A stretch of DNA of 10,854 nucleotides from a virus, in UHGV virus genome UHGV-0142836; one strand, 5' to 3'. Below the pieces are notes generated by a model, which worked only from the letters and a program-made list of their open reading frames with translations, was not told the DNA's origin and ran no database searches. A program made the position numbers and the translations under genes. Position 1 is the stretch's first letter; each line of letters opens with the position of its first letter. This document shows, in pieces, positions 1-10,854 of the stretch.

Positions 1-692
1 TCATAGTTCCTTCGTAGTTCCTCTTAAAAAATCACTTACAGACACCTTAATATCTATACAGATTTCACGTAGAACACGATTAGTGCGTAAAACAGCTATT
101 ATGTTAAAAACACACTGTATACGTATCAGTACTGATTTATAAGGGTTTTGTGTATTTGAAGATAAGAGGCTATACAGCACCTTGAGAGCATGTCTTCTAA
201 GTCATTGATACATAAGGTCACAGAAGTTTGTGTCTGTTACAGAGAAAACTGGATAGGACTTCACAGAACTACAAAATGTTACAGCTATTGATAGGTGAAA
301 TCTTCTTGATAGATGCTTTGAAGTGTGGTGAAGGTTTCTTGAGGTGGAATTAACAGATGCTATGAAGAAAGTCAATAGTTGGTTATAGATATTTTAACTG
401 CTTTTGCAAAGGGGGTGCTATATCGTGAATCTGGGGTACTTAACAGCCATCAATCATGAGGTAGATTCTACCGAATCAACTGTGTAGATATTTTTAAGAT
501 TATCGGTGAAGGGGGAATGCAGAGGGGGTACTACGATTTTTATAAAAATTTTCAGAAGCTAAATAACTACTGTACAGATTTTATACAACTCTACCAAACA
601 TCATAGAAAGCTCTGTAGCGAGTTTTAACCCCATTTTTAGGGGTAGTCTATAGGTATGTACCGCCCACCTTTAAATAAAGGGGTAAAATCGC

Positions 693-723
693 TTAGAATG
701 CGTTACAGAGCGTCTGAGAAGCT
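693..723. repeat. Solo copy of an R2 arm (see R2 copies at 1949-2047 and 3622-3750)
   Basis: 'ttagaatgcgttacagagcgtctgagaagct' matches the reverse complement of 3622-3652 with about 4 central mismatches, and also resembles the R2 right-arm core 'cgttacagagcg'. Confidence 0.5.
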
Positions 724-1490
724 ATATTCACAGATTTTACTAAAACCTCAGACTTTCTAAGTGGTCTTTTTAACAGGAGGGTTCTTTCTCATGTATCACC
801 CTCTCTTCCCACTGAGTAAGCTACACAGACCTAGAGAACATGCCTTCACAACACCTATATAGGTCAGATTTAGAGGGTTTTGATAGAATCTTCAAAGGTA
901 CTTGACAGATAACTATGAAGTTGTTAGGAAGGAGTGTTTAACGGGGGAAGAGATACGATATAACCCGAAGGGGAGAGTATCATCTTAACAGTGATTGTAA
1001 GAGTAAAACTGAAAAGATACTTAACAGAACTACCAAGAGGGAGCGATAAGACCAGAGGTAGTGACCTTGTTAAACAGTTCGTTTCAAAGCTCTTAAGAAT
1101 CTGTTAAGTAAGGTCATGTGAACAATCTTACCATTTTGTCAATGCTTTTGTCTTTGACCTAAATCAATAAAATGTATCGTTTGATATGTTTTTAAACAAA
1201 ATAGTTAAAAATCTTTTTAGAGGTGCGCTTCGCTTGTGTCACCAATATCATTCTTCCCTGTCTAAGAGGGAAGTTACAGGGCATTTCAAAGCCCTCAATA
1301 GGCAAACCGAGGAATACGGAAAACCGAGGGAAGAAAAACTATTGTGATTACCTTGAACAAGGTCTGTAAAGGTCGTTTAAGAGGTCGGTTAAGAAGGGAG
1401 CTTCCCTTTCTTGGGTGTCGCTCTTCTCCCGCTTAGTGGATTGATTAAGAAGACCTCTGAAGTTTCTCTGTGAAGGTGCTGAACAGCTAT

Positions 1491-1543
1491 TATATTGGGT
1501 GATTACAACTTATTGAAAAATAAGAACTTTTATAAGTTACTGT
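1491..1543. repeat. 53-bp direct repeat, copy 1, containing palindrome 'cttattgaaaaataag' (1509-1524)
   Basis: First 42 bp are identical to 1585-1626, then 2 mismatches in the next 11 bp; internal 6-bp inverted repeat CTTATT/AATAAG around GAAA, followed by AACTT-ttat-AAGTT. Confidence 0.7.
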
Positions 1544-1584
1544 TAAGGTTACAGAGTTAACTGTGAAGAGACTTGTCAGTCTTA

Positions 1585-1637
1585 TATATTGGGTGATTAC
1601 AACTTATTGAAAAATAAGAACTTTTAGAAATTACTGT
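1585..1637. repeat. 53-bp direct repeat, copy 2 (94 bp downstream of copy 1)
   Basis: Same sequence as 1491-1543, including the internal palindromes. Confidence 0.7.
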
Positions 1638-1719
1638 CAGAGAGGTGAATACTTGATAGATACAGCTTTCCGGTTCTGTCAAGCTATTTTTTAATAGATA
1701 GCACAAAATGCTAAAGATA

Positions 1720-1749
1720 CCCCCCTATACATCTCGTACAGGGGGTTTT
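1720..1749. terminator. Probable bidirectional intrinsic terminator
   Basis: GC-rich hairpin 'cccccctatac-atctc-gtacaggggg' (about 9 of 10 bp paired) followed by TTTT on the plus strand and by a T-rich run on the minus strand; lies 10 bp beyond the stop of the minus-strand gene at 1759. Confidence 0.45.
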
Positions 1750-1758
1750 GGAGGGGGT

Positions 1759-1935
1759 TTAGCGGGGGTCTGTATGGTCATTATCCTTAAGGTCAAGCGT
1801 CCATGTACGACCGAACAGTTTAAAGACAACAAGCACCCTGACGAGGACGTAGCGAAGTAGCAGACCTGCAATAAGTCCAATACCTCCACCAGCCCACACA
1901 TCAGGTGACCCCAATTCCTGAGGGAGATTTACCAT
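1759..1935 (-). CDS. Small hydrophobic membrane protein, 58 aa (MVNLPQELGSPDVWAGGGIGLIAGLLLRYVLVRVLVVFKLFGRTWTLDLKDNDHTDPR)
   Basis: The six-frame ORF runs 1759-1977 from a TTG; the in-frame ATG at 1935-1933 is preceded by AAGGA about 7 nt upstream. One predicted transmembrane stretch (GGGIGLIAGLLLRYVLVRVLVVF). Terminator immediately downstream. Function not recognised. Confidence 0.4.
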   Translation of the reverse strand: MVNLPQELGSPDVWAGGGIGLIAGLLLRYVLVRVLVVFKLFGRTWTLDLKDNDHTDPR

Positions 1936-1948
1936 TAGTTTTCCTTGT

Positions 1949-2047
1949 AAGACGCTCTCAATCGCATTCTGACACAAAAAGTATCTGACCTTATGAGTTG
2001 ACCTGAAGAGGCCGTTTAACTCGTTACAGAGCGATTGAAGAGGTCTG
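1949..2047. repeat. R2 element copy 1: inverted-repeat arms (1951-1970 and 2014-2047) around a ~40-bp spacer
   Basis: Left arm 'gacgctctcaatcgcattct' and right arm 'gtttaactcgttacagagcgattgaagaggtctg' are near-identical to the arms at 3631-3650 and 3717-3750; the arms are imperfect reverse complements of each other (GCGATTGA core). Confidence 0.6.
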
Positions 2048-2079
2048 TGTGCAATGCAATAACCATGTGACCAAATACA

Positions 2080-2118
2080 TAGTTGATTCGGTTAGTTGGG
2101 ATTGTACCAACCCCTATC
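2080..2118. repeat. att-like composite repeat (left copy): 18-bp part A at 2080-2097 fused to 26-bp part B at 2093-2118
   Basis: 'tagttgattcggttagtt' is identical to 10825-10842; 'tagttgggattgtaccaacccctat' matches 10529-10554 with 2 mismatches. A degenerate A-like sequence 'catagttccttcgtagttcc' also sits at 2-21. Confidence 0.45.
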
Positions 2119-2204
2119 GAATAAACCTCATAGCCACGCCTTTATATTTTACTCTCCCCATAAACCCATTATACCACAGATGTTAATAAAATGTTAAAAA
2201 ATAC

Positions 2205-2233
2205 TTGACATTAGCCTTTGAAAATGCTAGGAT
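2205..2233 (+). promoter_or_regulatory. Sigma70-like promoter P1: TTGACA, 17-bp spacer, TGcTAGGAT (extended -10)
   Basis: TTGACA at 2205-2210 and TAGGAT at 2228-2233 with TG at 2225-2226; followed by 'ttgtatatat', which is shared with promoter P2 at 4197-4225. Confidence 0.4.
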
Positions 2234-2283
2234 TGTATATATGAGTTAACAGAGAATTAACAATTATAAGGGCCAGCTTATGA

Positions 2284-2835
2284 ATGAACGACAGAGAATT
2301 TCAAAAGTTTCTTGAAGAATCCAAGAGACGCAACAGACACAACGGTTACAGCCACACAAACAACCCCACCAGATACGAAGTCCCAGCCTTTACCAAATCC
2401 GAACGTAAAAACATTGAAGCGGTCATTCGTAGCATTACGCCACGAGACAGATTTATGCCAGCACGCAAAGAAAAAGAGAATACTTTAAAAACTTTCTTGA
2501 TGGGCTTTGATTCTTACGAGCAACTGCCAGCAAAAATTGAAGATTTAATTATCGGCACTTGTCGCAGCTTTGGAAGAGATAATTATCACCGAAAAGTTTT
2601 CTATTTACTACGAAATATTGACAAGATTAGCTCAAGCACAATAACAAGTCATCTACAGCGTCAAGCGACCCGATTAAGCCATGAGCTACCAAGCGATAAA
2701 TATTGCGCTAACTTAGCCACTATTTGCATGAAAGTTATTGAGACAATTAATCATCATGCGGAAATGGGAAATATCAGCCTTACGACAAGTGAGCCAGACT
2801 TTGAGTTTGACCCGTATATTTTGGAGGAATTTTAA
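2284..2835 (+). CDS. Hypothetical protein, 183 aa
   Basis: Intact ORF downstream of P1; its stop is 1 nt before the next start. No recognisable motif; weak Shine-Dalgarno. Confidence 0.55.
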   Translation: MNDREFQKFLEESKRRNRHNGYSHTNNPTRYEVPAFTKSERKNIEAVIRSITPRDRFMPARKEKENTLKTFLMGFDSYEQLPAKIEDLIIGTCRSFGRDNYHRKVFYLLRNIDKISSSTITSHLQRQATRLSHELPSDKYCANLATICMKVIETINHHAEMGNISLTTSEPDFEFDPYILEEF

Positions 2836-2836
2836 A

Positions 2837-3115
2837 ATGAATAAACACACTCTAACCCGTATTTCAGAGGAAGCTTTTAACGAGCTTAACAGAATTAAAC
2901 GAGCGACTAACCTGCCTCATCAGACTATTATGCAGCTTGCAATTGCTAAAGAGGTCACTGAGTCGGATTTACTGAAATATCCAGTTTCTAAAGGTCGCAG
3001 ACACATCAGAATTACTAAGAACGCTCTGGCTACTCTGAAGGAACTGAACAACTTTAAAATTGATATTGCCCGACTATTGAGCATCAAGATTCACAAGCTA
3101 TCGATGGGGGTTTAA
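2837..3115 (+). CDS. Putative small DNA-binding protein, 92 aa, possibly ribbon-helix-helix
   Basis: GGAGG at 2823-2827 sits 9 nt before ATG 2837. The track ORF (2738-3115) extends upstream inside the previous gene, so the internal ATG is preferred. N-terminus 'HTLTRISEEAFNELNRIKRATNLPHQTIMQLAIAKE' fits a strand-helix-turn-helix RHH pattern (inference only). Confidence 0.45.
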   Translation: MNKHTLTRISEEAFNELNRIKRATNLPHQTIMQLAIAKEVTESDLLKYPVSKGRRHIRITKNALATLKELNNFKIDIARLLSIKIHKLSMGV

Positions 3116-3318
3116 TGCTATGCATTACCTTTGAATACCACACAGATAAAATGATTCGCTACATCTCCGACCTCCTGATTAAAGGAAACGGATTCGGTGA
3201 CATCCATAACTCAAAAGATATTTTCATTAAAGCCATTGGCCCAAATGAAACACTGAAAACAGCAGTTAAACCGGAATGGTTTGAACGTCATAAGATTGAA
3301 TTAGGTTATTGGGGGTGA
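3115..3318 (+). CDS. Hypothetical protein, 67 aa
   Basis: Start overlaps the previous stop (TAATG at 3113-3117), indicating translational coupling. No recognisable motif. Confidence 0.45.
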   Translation: MLCITFEYHTDKMIRYISDLLIKGNGFGDIHNSKDIFIKAIGPNETLKTAVKPEWFERHKIELGYWG

Positions 3319-3327
3319 GGAGGTTTT

Positions 3328-3615
3328 ATGAAACCTTGGCATGAAGATGTTAGAAGATATTTTGCAGAACACCTTATCTATGATGAATCCAGTGATTCCC
3401 TGTGCTGGTCTGATGGAGAGTCAGTCACGATAAATACCGACGACTACGGCAACAAAACATTTAATATAGGTCGATACACATTCTATGTGAAATATGTTGT
3501 CTGGTTCCTTTATCATGGCTATCAATCCAATAAGCAAATTATCCATCGAAATGGTAACAGAGCCGATACCAGACCAAAAAACCTTATGCAAGTCCGAGAC
3601 TTTAAGAGAAATTAG
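3328..3615 (+). CDS. Small HNH-family endonuclease, 95 aa
   Basis: GAGGAGG immediately upstream of ATG 3328. C-terminal 'YVVWFLYHGYQSNKQIIHRNGNRADTRPKNLMQV' matches the phage HNH pattern (HRlvw...H-x-dGn-x-dNr-x-NL). Confidence 0.55.
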   Translation: MKPWHEDVRRYFAEHLIYDESSDSLCWSDGESVTINTDDYGNKTFNIGRYTFYVKYVVWFLYHGYQSNKQIIHRNGNRADTRPKNLMQVRDFKRN

Positions 3616-3621
3616 AAAAAC

Positions 3622-3750
3622 AGCTTCTCAGACGCTCTCAATCGCATTCTAACGCAAAAAACTACCTTGTTTTAGGGTGGGTAATACCACTGTACAGGCT
3701 ACCCCTGAAAAAGACTGTTTAGCTCGTTACAGAGCGATTGAGGAGGTCTG
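3622..3750. repeat. R2 element copy 2: arms at 3631-3650 and 3717-3750 around a ~66-bp spacer containing hairpin GGGTA...TACCC and palindrome CTGTACAG
   Basis: Arms near-identical to copy 1 while the spacer is unrelated; the element ends 5 nt before the AAGGAG Shine-Dalgarno of the gene at 3772. Confidence 0.6.
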
Positions 3751-3771
3751 GTAAAAAGGAGATTTTAAGAA

Positions 3772-4095
3772 ATGAACAATTACGAATTACAGATTTTCGT
3801 TGATGCCGACACTGCTATGATGATTCAGGCTTTCAGTGATTCCGGTGTATCAATTGACTTTGATAAATTACTAAAGCTGATGGCTGATAATGCAGAAAAC
3901 ATCTCTGACTTTATTCAGTCGGTGGAGTTTAACGAGCCTCGAATGATGCTACCAATTACAGACTCAAACATGAAAAGATTGGTTATTGAGCAAACGAACA
4001 AATACAGTATTTCCCCAGAGCAATTTTTGAAAGGTGCTGTGACAATCCTGTACAGCGATAATATTTTGGTGACGGATTCTGTGAGGATTCACTAA
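3772..4095 (+). CDS. Hypothetical protein, 107 aa
   Basis: AAGGAG sits 10 nt upstream of ATG 3772; intact ORF; no recognisable motif. Confidence 0.55.
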   Translation: MNNYELQIFVDADTAMMIQAFSDSGVSIDFDKLLKLMADNAENISDFIQSVEFNEPRMMLPITDSNMKRLVIEQTNKYSISPEQFLKGAVTILYSDNILVTDSVRIH

Positions 4096-4172
4096 TGACG
4101 TTAATTGTATTATGGACGCTGCTAGGGCTATTTGTTGGTTGCTGGATGGGTAACACAGTAAATAAGAATTGA
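4095..4172 (+). CDS. Candidate 25-aa hydrophobic micropeptide (MTLIVLWTLLGLFVGCWMGNTVNKN)
   Basis: ATG overlaps the upstream stop (TAATG at 4093-4097), the same coupling geometry as at 3113-3117; single hydrophobic helix. Below the ORF-track size cutoff, hand-translated. Confidence 0.25.
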   Translation: MTLIVLWTLLGLFVGCWMGNTVNKN

Positions 4173-4196
4173 TGTTACCAATCTGTTAAAAAGCTG

Positions 4197-4225
4197 TTGA
4201 CAAATAACATTGAGCATGACATAAT
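4197..4225 (+). promoter_or_regulatory. Sigma70-like promoter P2: TTGACA, 17-bp spacer, CATAAT
   Basis: TTGACA at 4197-4202 and CATAAT at 4220-4225, followed by 'ttgtatatat' exactly as in P1. Confidence 0.4.
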
Positions 4226-4232
4226 TGTATAT

Positions 4233-4416
4233 ATAGGGAGAGCAATTCTCTCTTATTTTCTTTCAATAATCCGATGGATGGATATTCTGAGTTGGAAAGG
4301 TGCAATGCTTTTCGTCATGGCCTTTCAGTTTAGTCTGAGAGGCTATCTCAAAAAGTGCTTAATCATTCATTGAACCCTTTACAGCTTTGCCCTAACTCAT
4401 GATTAGGGCTTTCTTT
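4233..4416 (+). ncRNA. Candidate small RNA or structured leader transcribed from P2, ending at the first terminator
   Basis: About 185 nt between the predicted start site and the terminator at 4389-4416; no ORF with a ribosome-binding site; hairpin GAGAG-caatt-CTCTC directly after the predicted start. Confidence 0.25.
4389..4416 (+). terminator. Intrinsic terminator T1
   Basis: Perfect 7-bp stem GCCCTAA / TTAGGGC with a 7-nt loop, followed by TTTCTTT. Confidence 0.5.
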
Positions 4417-4485
4417 AAGAGTTTTTAAACAGAGCTTTTAAAGAAAGTTTTTCCTGAAACTTCGTTAACGTTAAAGCAAACCTTC

Positions 4486-4519
4486 AAAGCCCTTCACAGA
4501 TTATGTTTAGGGCTTTTTT
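4486..4519 (+). terminator. Intrinsic terminator T2
   Basis: Stem 'aaagccct' / 'agggcttt' with a 15-nt loop, followed by a T-run; its 3' half 'tttagggcttt' repeats T1. Confidence 0.45.
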
Positions 4520-4629
4520 CAGCTTTTAAAAAGCATACTTGGCAAACCGCCTTTTAAGCCTCTTCTAAGTTCGTAGGATGTCAGGTGTGCTTTTTAAAAA
4601 CTGAATATTACTTAGAAGAGGAAAATGAA

Positions 4630-5337
4630 ATGGAAAATCTATATATTAGCGGTAGAAAGGTTGATAGCTTCGGTGACTGGTCGCCACAGACTGAACATCC
4701 AGCTATCACTATTCAGCGTCAAGAGCATGACAAGCGCATTGAGCTTGAGCAATCGCTAAAGATGTCACCAAAAACAACCATCTTTGTGTCTCCTGAACCT
4801 CAAGAGATGCCTGATGTTTGCAAGGGTGAAGCATTACTTGAGCTTGAAAAGAAATATTACCCACTGCTGAAAGCACAAAGAATTAAACTTGATGACGCTT
4901 ACAGCAAAGTTACCCTGATGCAATCAGCTATTGAGCCATCAGAATTTGAGATTCAGGATGAATTGTCACAGAAACCATTTGTCTATTACCAATACGAAGA
5001 CAATGATGGTTTTGGTACTTTTCCTGAGAATATCCCAGACGTGATTAATAATCTTCCTGATGGATATCGAATTGTGAAAATGATTGGAGCTTCAAGAGGT
5101 GATGGTCAGTTTATTTACATGACCAATAAGAGCGATGAAGAACTCCGTGAAATTGCCAGACAGAACATCTTAGCATCACGTAACAAGCAACTTGAAAATG
5201 TTAAGTTGTGTCTCTTAAGAGAGCTTCAGGCTATGAAAGACCTTATTTCTGCATATGAAACGCAGAAGAAGATTGCTATGCAGGCTGATATTGAGCAGTT
5301 AGTGAAGATTTCTCAGAAGTATAGCAAGGTACTTTAA
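4630..5337 (+). CDS. Hypothetical protein, 235 aa, with a predicted coiled-coil C-terminus
   Basis: The six-frame ORF begins at GTG 4585; the in-frame ATG at 4630 has a GAGGA Shine-Dalgarno about 8 nt upstream. No recognisable domain. Confidence 0.55.
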   Translation: MENLYISGRKVDSFGDWSPQTEHPAITIQRQEHDKRIELEQSLKMSPKTTIFVSPEPQEMPDVCKGEALLELEKKYYPLLKAQRIKLDDAYSKVTLMQSAIEPSEFEIQDELSQKPFVYYQYEDNDGFGTFPENIPDVINNLPDGYRIVKMIGASRGDGQFIYMTNKSDEELREIARQNILASRNKQLENVKLCLLRELQAMKDLISAYETQKKIAMQADIEQLVKISQKYSKVL

Positions 5338-5361
5338 CTAATAATTAAAAGGAGGTGATGA

Positions 5362-5577
5362 ATGATTGATTTGCAACAGCGTTATGAAACTATTAAGTCG
5401 GCTTGCAAAAACTTAAAGTTACAAACTAAGCCAGCCTTAAGAATTAAAACCAAACGTCAAGTTATCACCTCACACAAACCAAAAACACGCAAGATTCCAA
5501 AGTGGTGTATCGACCGTATCCCTTCTGATGCCCAAATCATAGGTGAAACGGAATTACATTATCTTGTCAGACATTAA
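5362..5577 (+). CDS. Hypothetical basic protein, 71 aa
   Basis: Strong Shine-Dalgarno AAGGAGGTGA before ATG 5362; Lys/Arg-rich; terminator follows. Confidence 0.5.
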   Translation: MIDLQQRYETIKSACKNLKLQTKPALRIKTKRQVITSHKPKTRKIPKWCIDRIPSDAQIIGETELHYLVRH

Positions 5578-5624
5578 AAAGATTGGTTGGGTGTATGAGA
5601 TAGGTTCTATCGAATCTATAACAC

Positions 5625-5668
5625 GGGGAGAGATTATCGATATTATTCGGTAGTTTCTCCCTTTTTTG
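5625..5668 (+). terminator. Intrinsic terminator after the 71-aa gene
   Basis: Stem GGGAGA (5626-5631) / TCTCCC (5656-5661), extendable with G-U pairs, followed by TTTTTT at 5662-5667. Confidence 0.5.
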
Positions 5669-5684
5669 TATATGAGATAGTCTT

Positions 5685-5769
5685 CTATCGAATCCTATGT
5701 GCTACGTGAAATCTTCTGAACAGATATACCCACCAAAAATTATTTTTTACGTAGCTCACGCTTAACAGA
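5685..5769 (+). repeat. R1 element copy a: conserved stem-loop (GCTACGTGAA 5701-5710 pairing with TTTACGTAGC 5745-5754) plus box 'tcacgcttaacaga', 16 nt before ATG 5785
   Basis: About 85% identical over ~85 bp to 7957-8034, with the same spacing to the downstream start codon. Confidence 0.65.
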
Positions 5770-5784
5770 GGTGAAATATGAACA

Positions 5785-7875
5785 ATGGCACAATTTAAAG
5801 TTGATAGTTTTATCGTTGAGCTAGGCTTCAGCGAGAGCGTTATTAAGGGCTTGCAAAGAGTTGAAAAGGCAGCTTTGCAGTCAGCACAAAGAATTGAAAA
5901 GAACCTAAATAAAGGTTTTAGGATTAATACAAAGCAGCTTGATAGTAATTTAACGGCTTCTTTAGGGCAGCTTGAAAGAAAGTTTAATAAGACTTTTGAT
6001 AAGATTGAACAGAGAGCAAGAAATACTAAAGCTTTCCAGTTTACAACCAGATTTAATGACACTGTTAATCCTCCAAAACAATCAAGGCAACCACGAATTA
6101 GCGGAAACAGAGCAATCACAGCAGCGCATAGCGTGAATATGTCTAAGCTTGGTGATATTAATCCGCTGATGGCTAAAATGTTTAAAGCACAGTATTACAG
6201 CTTAAGCGGTAAGGCTGGTAATATTGGAAGTGAAAAGTTTAACGCTGAACTTGCAAAATTAAATCAATCTCTTCGTGAAACGTTGAATAAACTCAGGTCA
6301 CAGACAAAGACCACCAGCAAAAACAATCACAGTGAAAATGCTTCGAATGGTCTGGATGTATTAGCTACGAGTGCAATCAAAGCAGGTACAGCCATTTATA
6401 GTTTTCAGACAGCCTTAGAAGCTTACAAGAAGGTTATGGAGGTTGGTCTGAAAAAAGAAGCATCACAACGAGCGGCACAATTCGTTTTAGGTGATGAAGG
6501 TGCTAAACGAGCTACAGAATTTGTGAAGAATCTTGCTAATAATACAGGTGTTGACCAGATTGAGACATTAAGCAGCTTTGCTAAGTTTTCCGCTGGTGCT
6601 GGTGATATGAATGCAGACCAGAAAGAATCCTTATTTAGTAATGTGATTGGTACATCCCGACTAATGGGTTTAAGCACTGATGAGATTAACGGGATTCTAA
6701 AAGCTTTCGAGCAGATGGCTTCTAAAGGGAAGATTCAGGCTGAAGAGCTACGTGGTCAATTAGGGGACAGAATGGCAGGTGCTTTTCAGTTATTTGCCAG
6801 AAGCCTTGGGATGACTACAGAGCAATTAGATGCAGCTATGAAGAACGGTAAAGTTCTTTCTAAAGATGTTCTTCCTAAAGTATCCGCTGAAATGGGAAGG
6901 ATGATTGATAAAGCTGGTGGATGGGAAAAGATTATTAACTCTACTCAGACGCAGTTAGGCCGCCTTTCTAATTCATGGAATAATAATCTGGCCTTAATGT
7001 TCGATGGTTCACAGGAAGGTTTAACAGACTTTACAAGGTCACTGACTAATTTACTTAATTCGCTAGGTGGGCAATCTAAAAATCTTGGTGAACATTTTGG
7101 CGACTTGATGAAAAGTATGTCAAACGGTATTGATGATTTAACCACGATTAGCTACCGAGTGCAGGGATTCTTTGACAGAGTGACCCTTGCTTACAGAGAA
7201 TTAAATGACACTCAAAAAGCTGTAGCTGATGGTATCGCAAATGGCCTGTTAAGTGCATTAAAGGGACTTGCTGGTATTGTTGCTGTAAGGTCTGGTATTG
7301 GTGCTGTAGGTGGCATCTGGAACTTAATTAGGGCTATTTCCACGCTTGGAAATGTAGCAAATACAGCAGCGGGAAGAATCAATTCACGTTCTGGTACTGG
7401 TAGTGTTGAAGGTGGTAAAGGAAAATTATCTGTAGCTGATGCAATTACCAAAGTAATGATTGTTGGTATGGCAACTGATGTGATTAACTCCATTGTTAAA
7501 CCGTTCTATGAACGTCAGATGAGTAAGTCAGATAATCCAATTGACAAAGTTGTAAGGTCAAAGGTGGAACCCACAGACCAAGCATTGACTGGTGACATGA
7601 ACTCTTTAGCTGCTGTTTTATGGGCTATGGTTCAGGGCAAATCAAAGGATGTTCCACAGCTTTCACCTGAAGCATTAAATAATCTGAAAGGTCGAGTGGA
7701 AACATTCACACAAGATTTAAAGGTTATCAAGCCGTCAGTAAACATTCAGCCTCAGACAATCAATATCACAACTCAGACGGTACTTGATGGAAAGGTTATT
7801 GATGAAAGAACCACATCGCATATTAATCGTATGCAGGAAGATACCTTGATTAGCTCAGCTTACCCAGAGGAATAA
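5785..7875 (+). CDS. Protein with a phage tail tape-measure-like domain, 696 aa
   Basis: The segment 'FEQMASKGKIQAEELRGQLGDRMAGAFQLFARSLGMTTEQLDAAMKNGKVLSKDVLPKV' resembles the conserved tape-measure domain of lambda-like phages; Gly/Ala-rich hydrophobic stretch 'GLLSALKGLAGIVAVRSGIGAVGG'. Unusually short for a tape measure and lacking neighbouring tail genes. Confidence 0.5.
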   Translation: MAQFKVDSFIVELGFSESVIKGLQRVEKAALQSAQRIEKNLNKGFRINTKQLDSNLTASLGQLERKFNKTFDKIEQRARNTKAFQFTTRFNDTVNPPKQSRQPRISGNRAITAAHSVNMSKLGDINPLMAKMFKAQYYSLSGKAGNIGSEKFNAELAKLNQSLRETLNKLRSQTKTTSKNNHSENASNGLDVLATSAIKAGTAIYSFQTALEAYKKVMEVGLKKEASQRAAQFVLGDEGAKRATEFVKNLANNTGVDQIETLSSFAKFSAGAGDMNADQKESLFSNVIGTSRLMGLSTDEINGILKAFEQMASKGKIQAEELRGQLGDRMAGAFQLFARSLGMTTEQLDAAMKNGKVLSKDVLPKVSAEMGRMIDKAGGWEKIINSTQTQLGRLSNSWNNNLALMFDGSQEGLTDFTRSLTNLLNSLGGQSKNLGEHFGDLMKSMSNGIDDLTTISYRVQGFFDRVTLAYRELNDTQKAVADGIANGLLSALKGLAGIVAVRSGIGAVGGIWNLIRAISTLGNVANTAAGRINSRSGTGSVEGGKGKLSVADAITKVMIVGMATDVINSIVKPFYERQMSKSDNPIDKVVRSKVEPTDQALTGDMNSLAAVLWAMVQGKSKDVPQLSPEALNNLKGRVETFTQDLKVIKPSVNIQPQTINITTQTVLDGKVIDERTTSHINRMQEDTLISSAYPEE

Positions 7876-7899
7876 ACAATGTTAGAACTACTAATATTT

Positions 7900-7917
7900 A
7901 TTGCCACACATGGCAAT
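7900..7917. repeat. Perfect palindrome ATTGCCA-caca-TGGCAAT just downstream of the 696-aa gene
   Basis: 7-bp arms with a 4-nt spacer; possible weak terminator or operator. No clear T-tract. Confidence 0.3.
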
Positions 7918-7956
7918 CTATTAATCTTTATCTAGTATGACGATTCAACTATGAAT

Positions 7957-8034
7957 AGTCGAATGCTACGTGATTTCTTCTGAACAGATACCAACATCAA
8001 AAATTAGATTTCACGTAGCTCACGCTTAACAGAA
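7957..8034 (+). repeat. R1 element copy b: stem GCTACGTGA (7965-7973) / TCACGTAGC (8011-8019), box 'tcacgcttaacaga' (8020-8033), 15 nt before ATG 8049
   Basis: Perfect 9-bp stem with a 37-nt loop whose sequence ('tcttctgaacagata...caaaaatta') is conserved with copy a. Confidence 0.65.
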
Positions 8035-8048
8035 TAGGAATAACAACA

Positions 8049-8819
8049 ATGTTTGACACAAAGCAAATTAGATACTCAGGTAAAGATGGTATCTATTTTC
8101 ACCTTAGAGATAATGTAGAATCTTTTCTTGCCTTAACAGCTACTGAACAGATGGACTATGACAGCCCTATGATGGTGACAACTCAGGCTATGCAATCAGG
8201 GCAAACCGTCACAGATAATGTTCAGAGAGCACCTAAGACCATCTCTATTAGCGGTGTTGTAGTGGTTGATTCGACGGGTTCAATTCTATTAACCAGACAG
8301 GGGCAACTTGTAGAGACCTTTATTTCTACGGTTGAACAATGGCGAGACCAGAAGCAAATCATCACTATTGTTTGTAGAGATGGAATAGCTATCACTGATA
8401 GTATCATTACTCAGTTTAAAGCGAGTAAAGAGCATACCATTGCTAATGGTCTTCGTATTCAGATGACCTTCCAAGGTGTAGAATTTCGTTCAATCGTAGG
8501 TCAAACTGATATTTCGGCTGCAACTGGAAAAGCCGCGACTACGAATGATGGTGGTGCTACCAGTAAAAAGAATACAGGGAATACTACGACAAGTTTAGGT
8601 AATGGTATGTTGCTGTGTCAGGAGTTATATAATCGCTCTACGAGTGAACTCACTAATGAGCAACTTCAAGCCCGTATCAATTGTGGTAGAAGTGTCAAAG
8701 TTGAGAACGGAAAAAGCACCTTCTCAGATGCCGCTAATGAGCAGGCTTCAAAAGTGCTTAAGTCGGGTAATGCTTTACGGAAATTTAGTGTGAATCCGAA
8801 TAAGAAGGGCACTTATTGA
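8049..8819 (+). CDS. Hypothetical protein, 256 aa, with a Thr/Gly/Ser-rich central region
   Basis: Intact ORF immediately after R1b; no recognisable motif. A distal-tail or other structural role is conceivable only from its position after the tape-measure-like gene. Confidence 0.55.
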
Positions 8820-8828
8820 GACATAAAA

Positions 8829-8846
8829 AGGGGCTTCATAGCCCCT
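8829..8846. terminator. Bidirectional terminator between the convergent 256-aa gene and the recombinase gene
   Basis: Perfect stem AGGGGC / GCCCCT with a 6-nt loop, flanked by AAAAA upstream (a T-run on the minus strand, so it reads as a terminator for the recombinase transcript). Confidence 0.5.
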
Positions 8847-8851
8847 GAAAA

Positions 8852-10372
8852 TTACAGTTGATAAGCGTCAATATCCAGTAGCTCTTTATCAGCAATTTCA
8901 AAGATTGGTGACCCATCATTTAGCGGTAACGGGTTTGTAGGTATGGTGATTTTAGTGTCGTTCTGTAGCGTTACAGTTACCGAATCCTTACCCAATGTAA
9001 GCCCTTTTAGATGTTTGGACAAAATCAACTGACACTCGACACGACCTGCTTTAGTTGTCAGGTCAATATCTTTAAGCTGGGGTAGTTCCTTATCAGTGAG
9101 TGAAGCCTTACGCCTCATGTTATCAATCGTGGTCTGTAGCTCTGTGCGCTTCTGGTTAAGTCCCTTCACCTGTGTTTTCAACTCTGTAATATCATCCATT
9201 TCAAGAAGTAGGGCGGTAGCTTTCTTGATTCTAGCTGTGACAATTTCAACCTCATGCTGTAACGCTGCAATCTTCCTCTCTGATTCTCCATCATTCCCCA
9301 CGTCAATCATCCCCAGAAAATTATCAATCATCCATCGGTCAAACGGTTTACGCTTCAACGGTGGAACATCACAGCGACCGTCAGGATTGTTATTGCACCT
9401 GTAAACTCCTGCATACTTATTCTTAGTCCCTGTAGGGTGAACACTAGCCCCACACTGACACCGGAATAATCCCTTGAAGATGTTAATCGTTAATGGGTTA
9501 TCACTTGCAGGTGTACGGCCTTTACGATTTTTATCGAGGATTTCTTGAGCTTTATTGAACGTTGCAGCATCTATAGCGGCTTCGTAGTAGTTCGGTATAG
9601 CGGGGCGGTCATTGCGCTGTGATGCTGGTAACGTGCCTATTGTTGTCTCCGACCTTAAGATGGTGCGTACAGAGTGGACACTAAACCCGTTAGCATCTTT
9701 ACGCCGTGAGAATGAACTAATGTTATTAGCCTGTAGGTGACGTGCAATGTTATGTAGACTTTCACCATCTAGCAGCAGTTTGAAAATCAGTCTTACAGTC
9801 TCAGCGTGTTCATTGACTTCAAAAGTCTCAGGGTCAATCCATCCGGGGACCATCTTTGTTAAACGTTGTTTACCAGCAAGGGCAAGTTTTGCACGTTGCC
9901 CCCATTTCTGAGAAACACGGAAAGACTTCTGTTTACTCTCCTGATGCGCTAGGTAGCTTTTAACCCGCTGAATGATTGAGATTCCTAAATCATCGGATAG
10001 AGCATCCCTTGTGTAGATTAGCCCATCCTGTAGAGTGTGAATCTCGATACCATGAGCAATAATGCGGTTCATCAAGGCTTCTGTTTCAAGGTGTTCTAAG
10101 CGGCCTATACGGTCGATACTCTCAACAAGCAAAATCGTACCTTTTGAAAACTCCCCAGACTCAATACGGGCTAACATGTCACCAAACTGACCAGTAAGGT
10201 GCTTACCTTTGTAACCGGATAGACCCTCATCACTGAAAGACGCTACTACTTGAGCATCGCTATTCTTCTTCAACCATTGCTTGAACAGGTCATTTTGTCG
10301 TCTGGTTGAATCTGCACCTTCAGCGCCTTGTATGGCTGAACTGTACCGAAGGTATGTAATTACGCTTCTCAT
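8852..10372 (-). CDS. Large serine recombinase (phage or element integrase), 506 aa
   Basis: N-terminal resolvase-type catalytic domain (YLRYSS...Q with the Ser nucleophile, DEGLSGYKG, IDRIGR); a Cys cluster (CQCGASVH...YRCNNNPDGRCD) consistent with a zinc ribbon; C-terminal coiled-coil segment. Confidence 0.9.
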   Translation of the reverse strand: MRSVITYLRYSSAIQGAEGADSTRRQNDLFKQWLKKNSDAQVVASFSDEGLSGYKGKHLTGQFGDMLARIESGEFSKGTILLVESIDRIGRLEHLETEALMNRIIAHGIEIHTLQDGLIYTRDALSDDLGISIIQRVKSYLAHQESKQKSFRVSQKWGQRAKLALAGKQRLTKMVPGWIDPETFEVNEHAETVRLIFKLLLDGESLHNIARHLQANNISSFSRRKDANGFSVHSVRTILRSETTIGTLPASQRNDRPAIPNYYEAAIDAATFNKAQEILDKNRKGRTPASDNPLTINIFKGLFRCQCGASVHPTGTKNKYAGVYRCNNNPDGRCDVPPLKRKPFDRWMIDNFLGMIDVGNDGESERKIAALQHEVEIVTARIKKATALLLEMDDITELKTQVKGLNQKRTELQTTIDNMRRKASLTDKELPQLKDIDLTTKAGRVECQLILSKHLKGLTLGKDSVTVTLQNDTKITIPTNPLPLNDGSPIFEIADKELLDIDAYQL

Positions 10373-10528
10373 GGTGATAAACTCTCATGCAATTGATTAT
10401 CATTTAAAGATAAGCTTATAACCGTTATGGCTAATGCTACAATGCCGAATAGCTACAATACAATGACCCTTGAATGAAGTCTATTCGGTTTTCTAAGAGA
10501 CCTGTTAAAAACAGGACAATATCAGGTG

Positions 10529-10554
10529 TAGTTGGGCTTGTTCCAACCCCTATG
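10529..10554. repeat. att-like repeat part B (right copy), containing hairpin GTTGG-gcttgtt-CCAAC
   Basis: 'tagttgggcttgttccaacccctat' matches 2093-2118 with 2 mismatches; lies about 155 bp upstream of the recombinase start. Confidence 0.4.
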
Positions 10555-10824
10555 ACTATGCAATTTTCCAAGTATCTAAGCAGTTTTACACAGATTCTAT
10601 GCAGTATCGGTATAGTCCCTTTTTATCATAACTTATTGAAATATATAAAGAATATGTGAAGTCCCTTTTCAGGGTAAACTGTATCGTGTTAGTCGTCCCT
10701 CTCCAGACTCCTAGAAAAGTGCTATATACAGGAGTATATAACGCTATATAGATGTTTGGTCACCATACGTTACAGTTGCAAGAGATAACAATCAGCTATG
10801 TGAAAGTTAGGAGGTGATGGTTAT

Positions 10825-10842
10825 AGTTGATTCGGTTAGTTC
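10825..10842. repeat. att-like repeat part A (right copy), 18 bp identical to 2080-2097
   Basis: Exact 18-bp direct repeat about 8.75 kb from its partner; flanking sequence differs on both sides, as expected for a recombination junction. Confidence 0.45.
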
Positions 10843-10854
10843 TAGGAATCAACC

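What the first reader, a model, noticed from the sequence alone, without database searches (positions are those of the whole stretch)
2205..3615. Translationally coupled four-gene operon combining an RHH-like protein and a small HNH nuclease with two unknown proteins
P1 is followed by genes of 183, 92, 67 and 95 aa with 1-nt gaps or overlapping stop-start codons (TAATG at 3113-3117), which implies fixed stoichiometry. The 95-aa HNH protein is too small to carry its own targeting domain, so the unknown partners may provide specificity. Candidate roles: early-region nuclease or regulatory module, or a defence or anti-defence cassette.
Basis: partly seen in the sequence, partly recalled or inferred. 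Interest (0 to 1): 0.5.

Follow-up and report, generated by a model that had tools for sequence, protein, structure and literature searches.

The report
Mobile-element control operon with optional mini-HNH
The four genes are real and tightly coupled, but they are the promoter-proximal operon of an 11-kb excisable E. coli element (probably a phage satellite). The small "HNH nuclease" is an optional, truncated, horizontally spreading cassette, not a fixed partner of the other three proteins.

Summary
Observation confirmed. A near-consensus sigma-70 promoter (2205-2233) precedes genes of 183, 92, 67 and 95 aa, with a 1-nt gap, a TAATG overlap and a 9-nt gap. The 9-nt gap comes from an extra G in this copy; relatives overlap by ATGA.

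The 92-aa protein is predicted with high confidence to be a single-chain tandem ribbon-helix-helix protein (TraY/DndE/AvtR type). The 95-aa protein matches Pfam HNH_3.

The "fixed-stoichiometry nuclease complex" reading is not supported:
- Among 70 related elements, 26 lack any HNH gene, 20 carry this allele after gene 3, and 24 carry a 40%-identical allele before gene 3.
- Both alleles are about 98% identical in DNA across backbones that are only 75-83% identical.
- Both stop just after the NL motif, so the last seven HNH_3 profile positions are unmatched (by my reading, the metal-binding helix). One allele has Phe at the catalytic His.
- All 49 copies are intact, with an excess of synonymous changes.

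The 183-aa protein is a hallmark of related islands carrying a serine recombinase and a tape-measure gene, and has no known fold. The 67-aa slot is swapped for an unrelated 128-aa protein in about 40% of elements.

The window is a complete 10,854-bp circle carrying Ounavirinae-like tail genes. Related DNA occurs in about 10% of complete E. coli genomes. I found no paper describing this element family.

The parts
2168..2197 (-). Leftward promoter-like site (TTAACA-18-TATAAT, TG), back to back with P1
   Evidence: 11 of 12 matches. The CCATTATACC and TGTTAA elements are conserved in the family alignment.
2181..2262 (.). Four TGTTAA/TTAACA hexamers at 2181 and 2192 (+) and 2246 and 2257 (-). They are 11 bp apart within each pair and symmetric about 2221.5, bracketing the P1 core. 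Candidate operators.
   Evidence: One search gives the positions (26 copies in the window against 11.2 expected). Conservation in 64 distinct upstream regions. Binding by g2 is inferred, not shown.
2205..2233 (+). Promoter P1 (TTGACA-17-TAGGAT, extended -10 TG)
2284..2835 (+). g1, 183 aa. Core gene and hallmark of the element superfamily. Helical core at about residues 61-160, acidic-aromatic C-terminal tail. Function unknown.
2837..3115 (+). g2, 92 aa. Single-chain tandem ribbon-helix-helix DNA-binding protein. Core gene.
   Evidence: AF2 pLDDT 89.9, pTM 0.81, E4-10/H11-24/H28-36 and E54-60/H61-70/H77-91. Foldseek best matches: F-plasmid relaxosome chains E/F/G, DndE 4lrv and AvtR 4hv0, prob up to 0.98, TM 0.5-0.64. 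Strand residues HTLTR and HIRI are invariant in 20 sequences down to 52% identity.
3115..3318 (+). g3, 67 aa (71 aa in relatives). Small protein confined to this element family. The slot is variable.
   Evidence: 35 homologue clusters, all in Enterobacteriaceae apart from one metagenome bin labelled Streptococcus thermophilus. No family or phage hit. Replaced by an unrelated 128-aa protein with a sub-threshold C-terminal HTH in 27 of 70 elements. Extra G at 3311-3315 shortens it.
3316..3592 (+). Inserted mini-HNH cassette (allele A) relative to the empty site ...TATTGG|TA|GTCCGAGAC...
   Evidence: Filled against empty junction alignment. It carries its own GGAGG and ATG.
3328..3615 (+). HNH_A, 95 aa. 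Truncated HNH_3-type protein. Its last 7 codons (VRDFKRN) and stop are encoded by the pre-existing flank.
   Evidence: Pfam HNH_3 E=1.8e-8, profile 2-39 of 46. PHROG HNH families. Alignment with allele B and a full HNH-AP2 protein. Junction. 20 of 20 copies intact, 20 synonymous against 12 nonsynonymous codon variants.
3628..3751 (+). Long imperfect hairpin between the HNH stop and the next gene. No U-tract. Right-hand limit of the high-identity block.
   Evidence: RNA fold -44.9 kcal/mol, z -3.4, 0 of 200 shuffles as stable. 97-98.5% conserved in elements of both HNH types. Paralogous copies at 1944-2047 and, partial, about 640-740 on the minus strand.
3115..3750 (+). High-identity exchange block (g3 allele A + HNH_A + hairpin)
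   Evidence: Mean pairwise nt identity 93-99% inside the block against 59-86% in the flanks, among 19 HNH_A-bearing elements.
3772..4095 (+). g5, 107 aa. Probably co-transcribed, because no promoter-like site or intrinsic terminator lies between the HNH stop (3615) and 3772.
   Evidence: Always present after the hairpin or slot-3 gene. Co-transcription is inferred.

Best explanation
The locus is the promoter-proximal regulatory operon of a mosaic, integrative and excisable element of about 11 kb in Enterobacteriaceae. The element carries a large serine recombinase and tail genes like those of Ounavirinae (FelixO1-type) phages, and is most likely a phage satellite.

Core of the operon: g1, g2 and a variable 'slot 3' gene, probably followed by g5.

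- g2 is a monomeric tandem ribbon-helix-helix protein. Its two invariant strands are expected to read DNA. I infer that it binds the four conserved TGTTAA hexamers that symmetrically bracket P1, and so autoregulates the otherwise near-consensus promoter and the back-to-back leftward promoter.
- g1 is the family hallmark, a helical protein of unknown fold. I infer that it is a DNA-binding control or replication-initiation factor of the element.
- The 95-aa 'HNH' gene is not a subunit of a fixed complex. It is a truncated cassette derived from a homing-endonuclease-type HNH_3 gene. It has entered the operon at two different gene junctions as two alleles, and it moves between otherwise divergent elements, here together with g3 and a conserved hairpin. 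It is kept as an intact, translationally coupled ORF under purifying selection.
- Its match lacks the end of the HNH_3 profile, and one allele lacks the catalytic His. Its retained role is therefore more likely non-catalytic or auxiliary (DNA or protein binding, or help in its own spread) than autonomous DNA cleavage.

Shown: gene layout, coupling, promoter conservation, predicted RHH fold, presence/absence and two insertion sites of HNH, exact insertion junction, identity discontinuity, intactness, circular form of the element.

Inferred: g2-operator binding, g1 role, activity of the mini-HNH, satellite lifestyle.
For: Layout.
P1 and hexamers conserved in 64 distinct upstream regions.
g2 fold. 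F TraY is described as a monomer holding the whole RHH-dimer fold, binding as a train of two direct copies plus one inverted copy.

HNH optional and at two positions. Counts among 70 elements:
- g2-g3-HNH_A: 20
- g2-HNH_B-g3: 14
- g2-HNH_B-g3long: 7
- g2-HNH_B-weak g3: 3
- no HNH: 26
RefSeq annotation of L001-L006 agrees.

Identity discontinuity:
- HNH_A 98.1% and HNH_B 97.9% nt, against g1 77%, g2 81-83% and g5 75-79% in the same elements.
- Block limits about 3115-3750.

Exact empty and filled site.
Intactness 49 of 49, with synonymous excess.
Catalytic-site comparison.
g1 distant homologues in other recombinase + tape-measure islands.

Element context:
- Related DNA in 570 of 5,426 complete E. 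coli genomes, chromosomes only.
- Circular permutation relative to integrated copies.
- 10,909-bp metagenome contigs equal 10,854 bp plus a 55-nt terminal repeat.
- A head-to-tail dimer contig.
- Tail genes match Ounavirinae.
Against: - No experiment or expression data. P1 activity and operon extent rest on consensus and conservation.
- The Foldseek E-values for g2 are weak (0.05-0.6). The case rests on model confidence, topology, and the fact that the top three target families are all single-chain double-RHH proteins.
- Hexamer-g2 binding is untested. TGTTAA also overlaps the -35 of the leftward promoter, which could by itself explain the conservation of that copy.
- HNH_A keeps the His and could still nick DNA with a partner.
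- The 98% identity could partly reflect frequent recombination of a favoured module rather than endonuclease-driven homing.
- Satellite status is circumstantial. No helper, no packaging signal and no induction were shown. The tape-measure protein is only 29% identical to that of phage garuso.
Confidence: 0.6

Rival explanations
1. The four proteins form a fixed complex in which g1, g2 or g3 target the small HNH nuclease to specific DNA, for example helper-phage DNA, acting as an early nuclease or a defence/anti-defence effector.
For: - Tight translational coupling, conserved in the family.
- The HNH lacks a DNA-binding domain.
- g2 belongs to the TraY/DndE structural type, and TraY works beside a DNA-nicking enzyme. 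That DndE binds nicked DNA is from my own knowledge.
- HNH_A retains the His.
- ORFs are under purifying selection.
Against: - 26 of 70 elements have g1-g2-slot3 with no HNH.
- The HNH sits at two different junctions and beside three different slot-3 genes.
- Its history differs from that of g1 and g2.
- Allele B has Phe for the catalytic His. Both alleles match only to position 38-39 of the 46-position HNH_3 profile.
- No PADLOC match.
Confidence: 0.12
2. The HNH genes are active free-standing homing endonuclease genes. They are purely selfish, cut HNH-less alleles of the operon, and spread by repair with co-conversion of flanking DNA. They have no function for the element.
For: - Presence/absence polymorphism at precise intergenic junctions.
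- About 98% identity across divergent backbones, and a sharply bounded high-identity tract around HNH_A.
- From my own knowledge, HNH_3 is a family typical of phage homing endonucleases.
- A full-length HNH-AP2 gene, 99-100% identical, also occurs in the cargo region of several elements.
Against: - No DNA-recognition domain.
- The end of the HNH_3 profile is unmatched in both alleles. His is replaced by Phe in allele B (29 of 29 copies); the Asp before His is lost in both.
- Excess of synonymous change and 49 of 49 intact copies argue for selection on the protein, beyond what a transiently invading selfish gene shows.
- The hairpin at the right edge of the tract is equally conserved in elements that lack HNH_A. 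Part of the 'co-conversion tract' therefore has another cause.
Confidence: 0.15
3. RHH antitoxin plus HNH toxin. The operon is a toxin-antitoxin or abortive-infection module.
For: - From my own knowledge, RHH proteins are common antitoxins and autoregulate their operons.
- In allele-B elements the HNH gene directly follows g2.
- A weak PADLOC hit of g2 to PDC-S26 (E=0.0038).
Against: - g2 is a self-contained tandem RHH. The model shows nothing C-terminal to the second RHH repeat (its last helix runs to residue 91 of 92), so there is no separate tail that could neutralise a toxin.
- g2 is always present while the HNH is optional. In this window g3 separates them.
- The HNH looks catalytically impaired.
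- No TA or defence family hit above noise.
Confidence: 0.04
4. The HNH is a packaging cofactor, like the HK97 gp74-type HNH proteins that stimulate terminase cutting. It would redirect the helper's terminase to the element's DNA.
For: - Small size, and residence in a phage-related element that has no terminase of its own.
- The circular and concatemeric forms imply that DNA processing is needed.
Against: - From my own knowledge, the gp74-type cofactors belong to the classical HNH family PF01844, not HNH_3. Here only HNH_3 is matched, and incompletely.
- The gene is absent from 37% of elements, which otherwise look complete.
- It is not adjacent to any packaging gene.
Confidence: 0.04

Closest known systems
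Single-chain tandem RHH proteins: F-plasmid TraY, archaeal-virus regulator AvtR, DndE
   Same: g2 is predicted to hold two strand-helix-helix repeats in one roughly 90-residue chain. That is the fold of an RHH dimer in a monomer. These three protein families are its best structural matches. Like TraY sites (two direct copies plus one inverted), the candidate sites at P1 are direct pairs in inverted arrangement, 11 bp apart.
   Different: No detectable sequence similarity: PDB profile search is empty, and the DndE model gives only 18.5 bits against a cut-off of 71.85. No relaxase, oriT or dnd genes nearby. The context is a promoter, not a nick site.
Free-standing HNH_3 homing endonucleases of phages (I-HmuI type; HNH-AP2 proteins such as WP_000258747 in sister elements)
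   Same: Same N-terminal region and HNH_3 motif, 37% identity to the HNH-AP2 protein. Intergenic insertion, presence/absence polymorphism, and near-identity across divergent hosts.
   Different: About 90 aa, with no AP2 or NUMOD DNA-binding domain. The ORF ends 2-4 residues after 'NL', with the tail supplied by flanking DNA. Asp-His becomes Ile-His (allele A) or Ile-Phe (allele B). It is translationally coupled inside an operon, and under purifying selection.
PLE of Vibrio cholerae, a satellite of the lytic phage ICP1 (per the abstracts listed). The further PLE details below are from my own knowledge.
   Same: A small chromosomal island with a large serine recombinase. Signs of excision and amplification. 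Genes related to a virulent myovirus group rather than a temperate phage. Nuclease-type genes and mosaic exchange are features of that conflict.
   Different: No sequence homology to PLE was tested or seen. This element carries tape-measure and Dit-like tail genes and no recognisable replication or capsid-remodelling genes. The helper is unknown and induction is unproven.
RHH-autoregulated operons (Arc/Mnt of P22, CopG, omega, antitoxins); comparison from my own knowledge
   Same: A small RHH gene sits in the operon it would control, and repeated short sites overlap the promoter.
   Different: Here the RHH is second in the operon and is a fused pseudo-dimer. The sites flank the core promoter instead of lying over it. 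Nothing has been tested.

Membership tests
HNH endonuclease, Pfam HNH_3 (PF13392) | Significant match to the family profile above the curated cut-off | tested here: met
   Window protein 34.3 bits against a cut-off of 24.8, E=1.8e-8. Allele B scores 23.5 bits, just below the cut-off.
HNH endonuclease, Pfam HNH_3 (PF13392) | Complete beta-beta-alpha-metal motif, including the C-terminal helix with its metal-ligand Asn/His | tested here: not met
   Only profile positions 2-39 of 46 are matched. The ORF ends 10 residues after 'NL', and the last 7 residues are encoded by the flank of the insertion site. Allele B ends 4 residues after 'NL'. That the missing part is the metal-binding helix is my reading of the fold. 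No structure model of the HNH protein was made.
HNH endonuclease, Pfam HNH_3 (PF13392) | Catalytic His (general base) preceded by Asp | tested here: inconclusive
   In an ungapped alignment with a canonical HNH-AP2 protein, WIDHIDGD aligns with QIIHRNGN (allele A: His kept, Asp replaced by Ile) and KIIFRDGN (allele B: His replaced by Phe). Activity was not tested.
Free-standing homing endonuclease gene (HEG) | Presence/absence polymorphism at a precise site between conserved genes | tested here: met
   Empty site TATTGG|TA|GTCCGAGAC against the filled site. 26 of 70 elements lack the gene.
Free-standing homing endonuclease gene (HEG) | Evidence of horizontal spread: identity far above that of the surrounding genome, with a bounded tract | tested here: met
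   98% against 75-83%. Block 3115-3750. Caveat: the hairpin at the right edge is conserved independently of the cassette.
Free-standing homing endonuclease gene (HEG) | Sequence-specific cleavage of the cassette-less allele; a DNA-recognition domain | tested here: not met
   No AP2, NUMOD or other DNA-binding domain in the 95 aa. Cleavage itself cannot be tested with these tools.
Ribbon-helix-helix superfamily (tandem, single-chain type) | Strand-helix-helix topology, twice in one chain, forming the pseudo-dimer | tested here: met
   AF2 pLDDT 89.9, pTM 0.81, E-H-H ... E-H-H. Best PDB matches are F-relaxosome chains E/F/G, DndE and AvtR. I did not verify that chains E/F/G are TraY; the paper reports three TraY copies.
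Ribbon-helix-helix superfamily (tandem, single-chain type) | Sequence membership in a curated RHH family | tested here: not met
   RHH_3 13.2 bits against 21.6; DndE PF08870 13.7 against 25; TIGR03184 18.5 against 71.85.
Ribbon-helix-helix superfamily (tandem, single-chain type) | Binding of repeated DNA sites through the strand pair | not testable with these tools
   Candidate sites exist, and the strand residues HTLTR and HIRI are invariant.
Known anti-phage defence systems (PADLOC-DB) | Match of any of the four proteins to a defence-system model | tested here: not met
   Only noise-level hits: g2 to PDC-S26 at E=0.0038, HNH to MTase_II at E=0.014.
Type II toxin-antitoxin module | Obligate pairing of the antitoxin gene with an adjacent toxin gene | tested here: not met
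   g2 is present in every element whose operon is resolved, whereas the HNH is absent from 26 of 70. In the window g3 separates them.
Phage satellite (PLE/PICI-like) | Integrase-bearing island, much smaller than a phage, lacking a full virion and replication gene set | tested here: met
   10,854 bp. Large serine recombinase, tape-measure and Dit-like genes only. No capsid or terminase hit. Integrated at yciI/tonB or inside the DUF72 gene.
Phage satellite (PLE/PICI-like) | Excised, amplified extrachromosomal form | tested here: met
   Window circularly permuted relative to integrated copies. Contigs with 55-nt terminal repeats. Head-to-tail dimer contig. A contig name states coverage 1478. This comes from assemblies, not a controlled experiment.
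Phage satellite (PLE/PICI-like) | Helper-dependent induction, packaging and transfer | not testable with these tools
   Only indirect links to Ounavirinae: Dit-like protein 67% aa identical to a phage garuso protein, tape-measure protein 29%, and short matches to the non-coding region of Mooglevirus KPS64.

The most novel reading that the evidence does not exclude
The window is a complete member of an undescribed, widespread family of E. coli/Shigella/Salmonella/Citrobacter phage satellites that parasitise virulent FelixO1-type (Ounavirinae) phages. It would be an enterobacterial counterpart of the Vibrio PLE-ICP1 system. The operon studied here would be its control module. Within that module, domesticated, catalytically reduced mini-HNH cassettes derived from homing endonucleases circulate among satellites, and act in the satellite-helper or satellite-satellite conflict, not as ordinary nucleases.
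Probability: 0.35. Interest if true: 0.8.

Novelty: new variant of a known kind. Interest (0 to 1): 0.5.

Why it matters
Taken alone, the operon combines known kinds of parts: an RHH regulator and a homing-endonuclease-derived gene.

What is unusual is a truncated HNH gene that lacks the end of the HNH_3 motif, and in one allele the catalytic His. It is nevertheless kept intact, coupled into an operon, and spread at about 98% identity among divergent elements. That makes it a candidate case of a homing endonuclease domesticated into something else.

The larger value lies in the context. This is an 11-kb element seen in circular form. Related DNA is present in roughly one in ten complete E. coli genomes. 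It carries tail genes of virulent Ounavirinae phages, and I found no description of it in the literature library. If it is a satellite of FelixO1-like phages, it offers a genetically tractable E. coli model for satellites of lytic phages. It would also bear on phage therapy and phage typing, which use these phages.

Tried and rejected
- Rfam (E up to 1) and tRNA scans of the whole window found nothing.
- A PDB sequence search with the HNH protein gave only spurious scFv hits.
- PDB profile searches with the g1 and g2 alignments found nothing meaningful.
- tBLASTn of g2 and g3 against 50,697 phage records: no match. g1: one hypothetical protein in an Aeromonas phage. HNH_A: only a 30% match in a Sulfitobacter phage.
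- The genome-contig scan with g1 gave a single short locus. The diverse g1 alignment was too variable for a metagenome scan, so a closer alignment was used instead.
- Test for helper mimicry of regulatory DNA. The intergenic elements were searched against phages and gave one 38-nt hit, in Mooglevirus KPS64.
  - A local comparison then found several short matches to that phage's 1.7-kb non-coding region.
  - None were found to Felixounavirus garuso. TTAACAGA is not clearly enriched genome-wide there (10 found, 5.4 expected), although 3 of the 10 fall in its 1.65-kb non-coding region.
- g3 and the alternative 128-aa slot-3 protein are unrelated by BLASTP.
- Seven literature searches for a description of this island family found none. 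The library is incomplete, so this does not prove novelty.
- Rejected readings: a toxin-antitoxin pair, a known defence system, a terminase-cofactor HNH, and decaying pseudogenes (49 of 49 copies are intact).
Full report

Yes. The six-frame ORF list and the sequence give four genes.
- g1 is at 2284-2835 (183 aa).
- g2 is at 2837-3115 (92 aa), starting from the ATG one base after the g1 stop.
- g3 is at 3115-3318 (67 aa), with TAATG at 3113-3117.
- The fourth gene is at 3328-3615 (95 aa).

The window as a whole holds no more promoter-like sites than shuffled sequence does. The consensus match alone is therefore weak evidence.

The stronger evidence is conservation. An alignment of 64 distinct upstream regions from related elements shows this stretch to be almost invariant, although the g1 protein behind it varies down to 57% identity.

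The g3/HNH junction is a 9-nt gap, not a 1-nt gap or an overlap. That is specific to this copy: an extra G in a G-run (GGGGG against GGGG in four relatives) ends g3 four codons early. In relatives g3 is 71 aa and overlaps the HNH start by ATGA.

**2. What the window is**

Related DNA occurs in 570 of 5,426 complete E. coli genomes, always on chromosomes and never in the plasmid collection.

Annotated copies are islands of about 11-12 kb. They are inserted between yciI and tonB, or inside the DUF72 gene next to yecD and aspS. A 506-aa large serine recombinase sits at one end, with a tape-measure gene and a Dit-like 'baseplate' gene beside it (Pfam and PHROG).

The window is circularly permuted relative to these integrated copies. 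Positions 10461-10854 align to the left end of the islands, and positions up to 10473 align to the right end next to the recombinase.

Gut-metagenome contigs that encode exactly the same g1 protein are 10,909 bp long, which is 10,854 bp plus a 55-nt terminal direct repeat. One of them is an exact rotation of the window. Another element gives an 11,178-bp circle. A 23,009-bp contig consists of two head-to-tail 11,477-bp units that differ at one base.

The window is therefore a complete excised or replicating form of the element.

Links to Ounavirinae phages:
- The tape-measure and Dit-like genes match Felixounavirus and other Ounavirinae phages at 73-79% nt identity in patches.
- At protein level the Dit-like protein is 67% identical to its counterpart in phage garuso, and the tape-measure protein 29%.
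- No capsid, terminase or recognisable replication gene is present.

The most economical reading is a phage satellite of virulent FelixO1-type phages. Helper dependence is not shown. Seven literature searches found no description of the family. The exact g2 protein is deposited as part of a 'MAG TPA Caudoviricetes sp.' record, under the name DndE.

**3. The 92-aa protein (g2)**

Family models give only sub-threshold hints: RHH_3, DndE and HTH_26.

Homologues are confined to this element family: 97 clusters, down to 52% identity. The alignment shows two repeats whose putative strands, HTLTR and HIRI, are invariant.

AlphaFold2 with that alignment gives pLDDT 89.9 and pTM 0.81. The topology is strand-helix-helix, a short helix, then strand-helix-helix.

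The best PDB matches are:
- three chains of the F-plasmid relaxosome structures;
- DndE;
- the archaeal-virus regulator AvtR.
Their probabilities reach 0.98 and TM-scores are 0.5-0.64, with weak E-values of 0.05-0.6.

The relaxosome paper states that F TraY is a monomer holding the whole RHH-dimer fold in one polypeptide. It binds as a train of three copies, two direct and one inverted. I did not verify that chains E/F/G are TraY, but three copies fit.

So 'RHH-like' is upheld and sharpened: g2 is a single-chain tandem RHH.

**4. Candidate sites for g2**

The hexamer TGTTAA occurs at 2181 and 2192 on the plus strand and at 2246 and 2257 on the minus strand. The two copies of each pair are 11 bp apart. 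The whole set is symmetric about 2221.5, the middle of the P1 spacer.

The hexamers are conserved across the family. One of them is also the -35 of a back-to-back leftward promoter, TTAACA-18-TATAAT at 2197-2168.

I infer that g2 autoregulates this divergent promoter region. This is an inference only.

**5. The 183-aa protein (g1)**

g1 matches no Pfam, PHROG, NCBIfam or PADLOC family.
- Close homologues are many: 1,062 clusters, and those listed are Escherichia, Shigella, Salmonella and Citrobacter.
- An exhaustive HMMER scan of 1.84 billion representative proteins found only 20 proteins.
- The distant ones, at 23-30% identity, share a conserved core.
- They sit in other islands that also carry a large serine recombinase and a tape-measure gene. 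One set is inserted in the same DUF72/aspS position in another organism.

g1 is therefore the hallmark gene of a wider island superfamily.

The function stays open. I lean to a DNA-binding control or initiator role, because it is the one universal non-structural gene and the element has no other candidate.

**6. The 67-aa protein (g3)**

g3 has 35 homologue clusters. All are from Enterobacteriaceae, apart from one metagenome bin labelled Streptococcus thermophilus. There is no family hit and no phage hit.

The slot is variable. In 27 of 70 elements it holds an unrelated 128-aa protein with a sub-threshold C-terminal helix-turn-helix. In three elements it holds a third arrangement.

**7. The HNH gene**

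I collected 79 metagenome loci with a g1 alignment. To these I added the six RefSeq loci, two IMG/VR loci and the window.

In 70 of these elements the g2-to-g5 interval is resolved. Its order is:

| Order | Elements |
|---|---|
| g2-g3-HNH_A-g5 | 20 |
| g2-g3long-g5 | 20 |
| g2-HNH_B-g3-g5 | 14 |
| g2-HNH_B-g3long-g5 | 7 |
| g2-g3-g5 | 6 |
| g2-HNH_B-weak g3-g5 | 3 |

So 37% have no HNH gene. The rest carry one of two alleles, 40% identical to each other, at two different junctions.

*Sequence identity.*
- Within the HNH_A group, mean pairwise nucleotide identity is 98.1% for the HNH gene and 96.5% for the adjacent g3. It is 77%, 81% and 75% for g1, g2 and g5.
- In the HNH_B group the HNH gene is 97.9% identical, against 77-83% for the neighbours.
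- A sliding profile puts the high-identity block at about 3115-3750, with sharp edges.

*Insertion site.* It can be read to the base. Empty sites read …TATTGG|TA|GTCCGAGAC…. The window reads …TATTGG|GGGTGAGGAGGTTTTATG…TGCAA|GTCCGAGAC…. The last seven codons and the stop of the 95-aa ORF are therefore flanking DNA.

*Truncation.* Both alleles end 2-4 residues of their own sequence after the 'NL' of the motif. The Pfam match covers only positions 2-39 (allele A) or 1-38 (allele B) of the 46-position profile, whereas the full HNH-AP2 protein of sister elements covers 2-45. By my reading of the fold, the missing part is the helix that completes the beta-beta-alpha-metal site.

*Catalytic residues.* In an ungapped alignment, the canonical Asp-His is Ile-His in allele A and Ile-Phe in allele B.

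*Selection.* All 20 + 29 full-length copies are intact. Distinct codon variants are 20 synonymous to 12 nonsynonymous in allele A, and 17 to 16 in allele B. With about three nonsynonymous sites per synonymous site, that is a rough dN/dS of 0.2-0.3.

*Other links.* No close relative exists in 50,697 phage records or in phage garuso.

**8. Reading of the HNH gene**

The pattern is that of a cassette derived from a homing-endonuclease gene:
- it is optional;
- its insertion is precise;
- it has two entry points;
- it is near-identical across divergent backbones.

It has not behaved as a decaying selfish gene, because it is maintained.

It is not an obligate subunit of a complex with g1-g3. Translational coupling here says only that the cassette adopted the operon's expression signals. 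The HNH_B cassette ends in GGAGATTTAATG, which mimics the g2 3' end it displaced.

Whether allele A still nicks DNA, alone or with a partner, cannot be decided here. Allele B almost certainly does not use the canonical mechanism.

A caution on the 'co-conversion tract'. The hairpin at its right edge (3628-3751; -44.9 kcal/mol, z -3.4) is also 97-98% conserved in HNH_B-g3 elements. It has two paralogues elsewhere in the window. It is thus constrained, or exchanged, in its own right.

**9. Extent of the operon**

There is no promoter-like site and no intrinsic terminator between 3615 and the next start at 3772. The hairpin has no U-tract. g5 (107 aa) is always next.

I therefore think P1 transcription continues into g5, up to the terminator-like hairpins at 4235-4253 and 4389-4409. 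This is inferred.

**10. Rivals**

That DndE binds nicked DNA is from my own knowledge.
- A purely selfish active homing endonuclease fits the population pattern but not the protein.
- Toxin-antitoxin, known defence systems and terminase-cofactor readings each fail a defining feature (see the membership table).

**11. Verdict**

Its central inference, a fixed partnership, is wrong.

The operon itself is a new variant of known kinds of parts.

The surrounding element is the more notable result. It is a widespread, apparently undescribed, circularising 11-kb element with Ounavirinae tail genes. It deserves experimental follow-up as a candidate satellite of lytic coliphages.

Noticed in passing
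window 1-10854 (attP about 10461-10473): The window is a complete circular or concatemeric element. It is circularly permuted relative to integrated copies. ENA contigs of 10,909 bp equal 10,854 bp plus a 55-nt terminal repeat. Another element gives an 11,178-bp circle (L030). Contig OOBX01000469.1 (L070/L071) is a head-to-tail dimer of an 11,477-bp unit with one mismatch.
   Followed up: yes
window 5785-7875 and 8049-8819; whole element: The tape-measure and Dit-like genes are related to virulent Ounavirinae (FelixO1-type) phages. The element has a large serine recombinase but no capsid, terminase or replication genes. Related DNA is in 570 of 5,426 complete E. coli genomes. This is a candidate undescribed satellite family; no paper was found. 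Eight units of 10.85 kb equal 86.8 kb, close to the 84-90 kb genomes of these phages. That last point is speculative.
   Followed up: partly
window 10473-10854 + 1-2160: About 2.6 kb has no ORF above 72 aa, yet is 84-93% conserved between elements. In sister elements this region holds cargo that the window lacks: an HNH-AP2 gene, a Dam methylase, a small resolvase-type recombinase, or other genes.
   Followed up: partly
window 1491-1543 and 1585-1637: Two 53-nt direct repeats, 96% identical and 94 nt apart, lie in the ORF-poor region. They look like iterons and are a candidate replication origin.
   Followed up: no
window 350, 1021, 1100(-), 2246, 2886, 4182(-), 5762, 7021, 8026: The 8-mer TTAACAGA occurs 9 times against 0.72 expected, and 0 of 200 shuffles reach that number. 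Copies lie just after the P1 -10 and shortly upstream of the tape-measure and Dit-like start codons. In phage garuso, 3 of 10 copies fall in its 1.65-kb non-coding region. This is a possible regulator or phage-promoter motif.
   Followed up: partly
window 5700-5787 and 7964-8051 (partial copy about 60-82 and 289-314): An 88-nt repeat (82% identical) with an internal 14-17-bp inverted repeat (TGCTACGTGAAATCT … AGATTTCACGTAGC) directly precedes both the tape-measure and the Dit-like gene.
   Followed up: no
window 456-477, 5594-5619, 5671-5698; also 371-588 and 1020-1107; L099 3500-5125: The imperfect palindrome TATGAGATAG(n)TTCTATCGAATC flanks the strong terminator at 5625-5662. It also occurs three times in the 1.7-kb non-coding region of Mooglevirus KPS64. 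Several further short collinear matches link the element's ORF-poor region to that phage region. None link it to Felixounavirus garuso. This may be mimicry of cis-acting helper sites.
   Followed up: partly
window 1759-1935 (-): A small ORF (MVNLPQELGSPDVWAGGGIGLIAGLLLRYVLVRVLVVFKLFGRTWTLDLKDNDHTDPR) with a hydrophobic segment lies downstream of the leftward promoter. It is conserved at protein level in L001 and L002. Gene callers instead annotate an overlapping, poorly conserved 58-aa frame. A hairpin paralogue (1944-2047) lies in its leader.
   Followed up: no
window 3311-3315: An extra G in a G-run truncates g3 from 71 to 67 aa and uncouples it from the HNH start. The same variant is present in independent metagenome contigs L010-L012.
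   Followed up: yes
all loci L001-L098: The family is extremely mosaic. Every gene (g1, g2, g5, g6, g7, tape measure, Dit-like, integrase) exists as several alleles, 26-100% identical, shuffled independently. At least three integrase types go with different insertion sites.
   Followed up: partly
L013-L017: Distant g1 homologues mark larger or different islands in other bacteria. One type of about 20 kb has a fuller tail module (TAC, tape measure, Dit, Pam3_gp18-like). Another is inserted in the same DUF72/aspS position.
   Followed up: no
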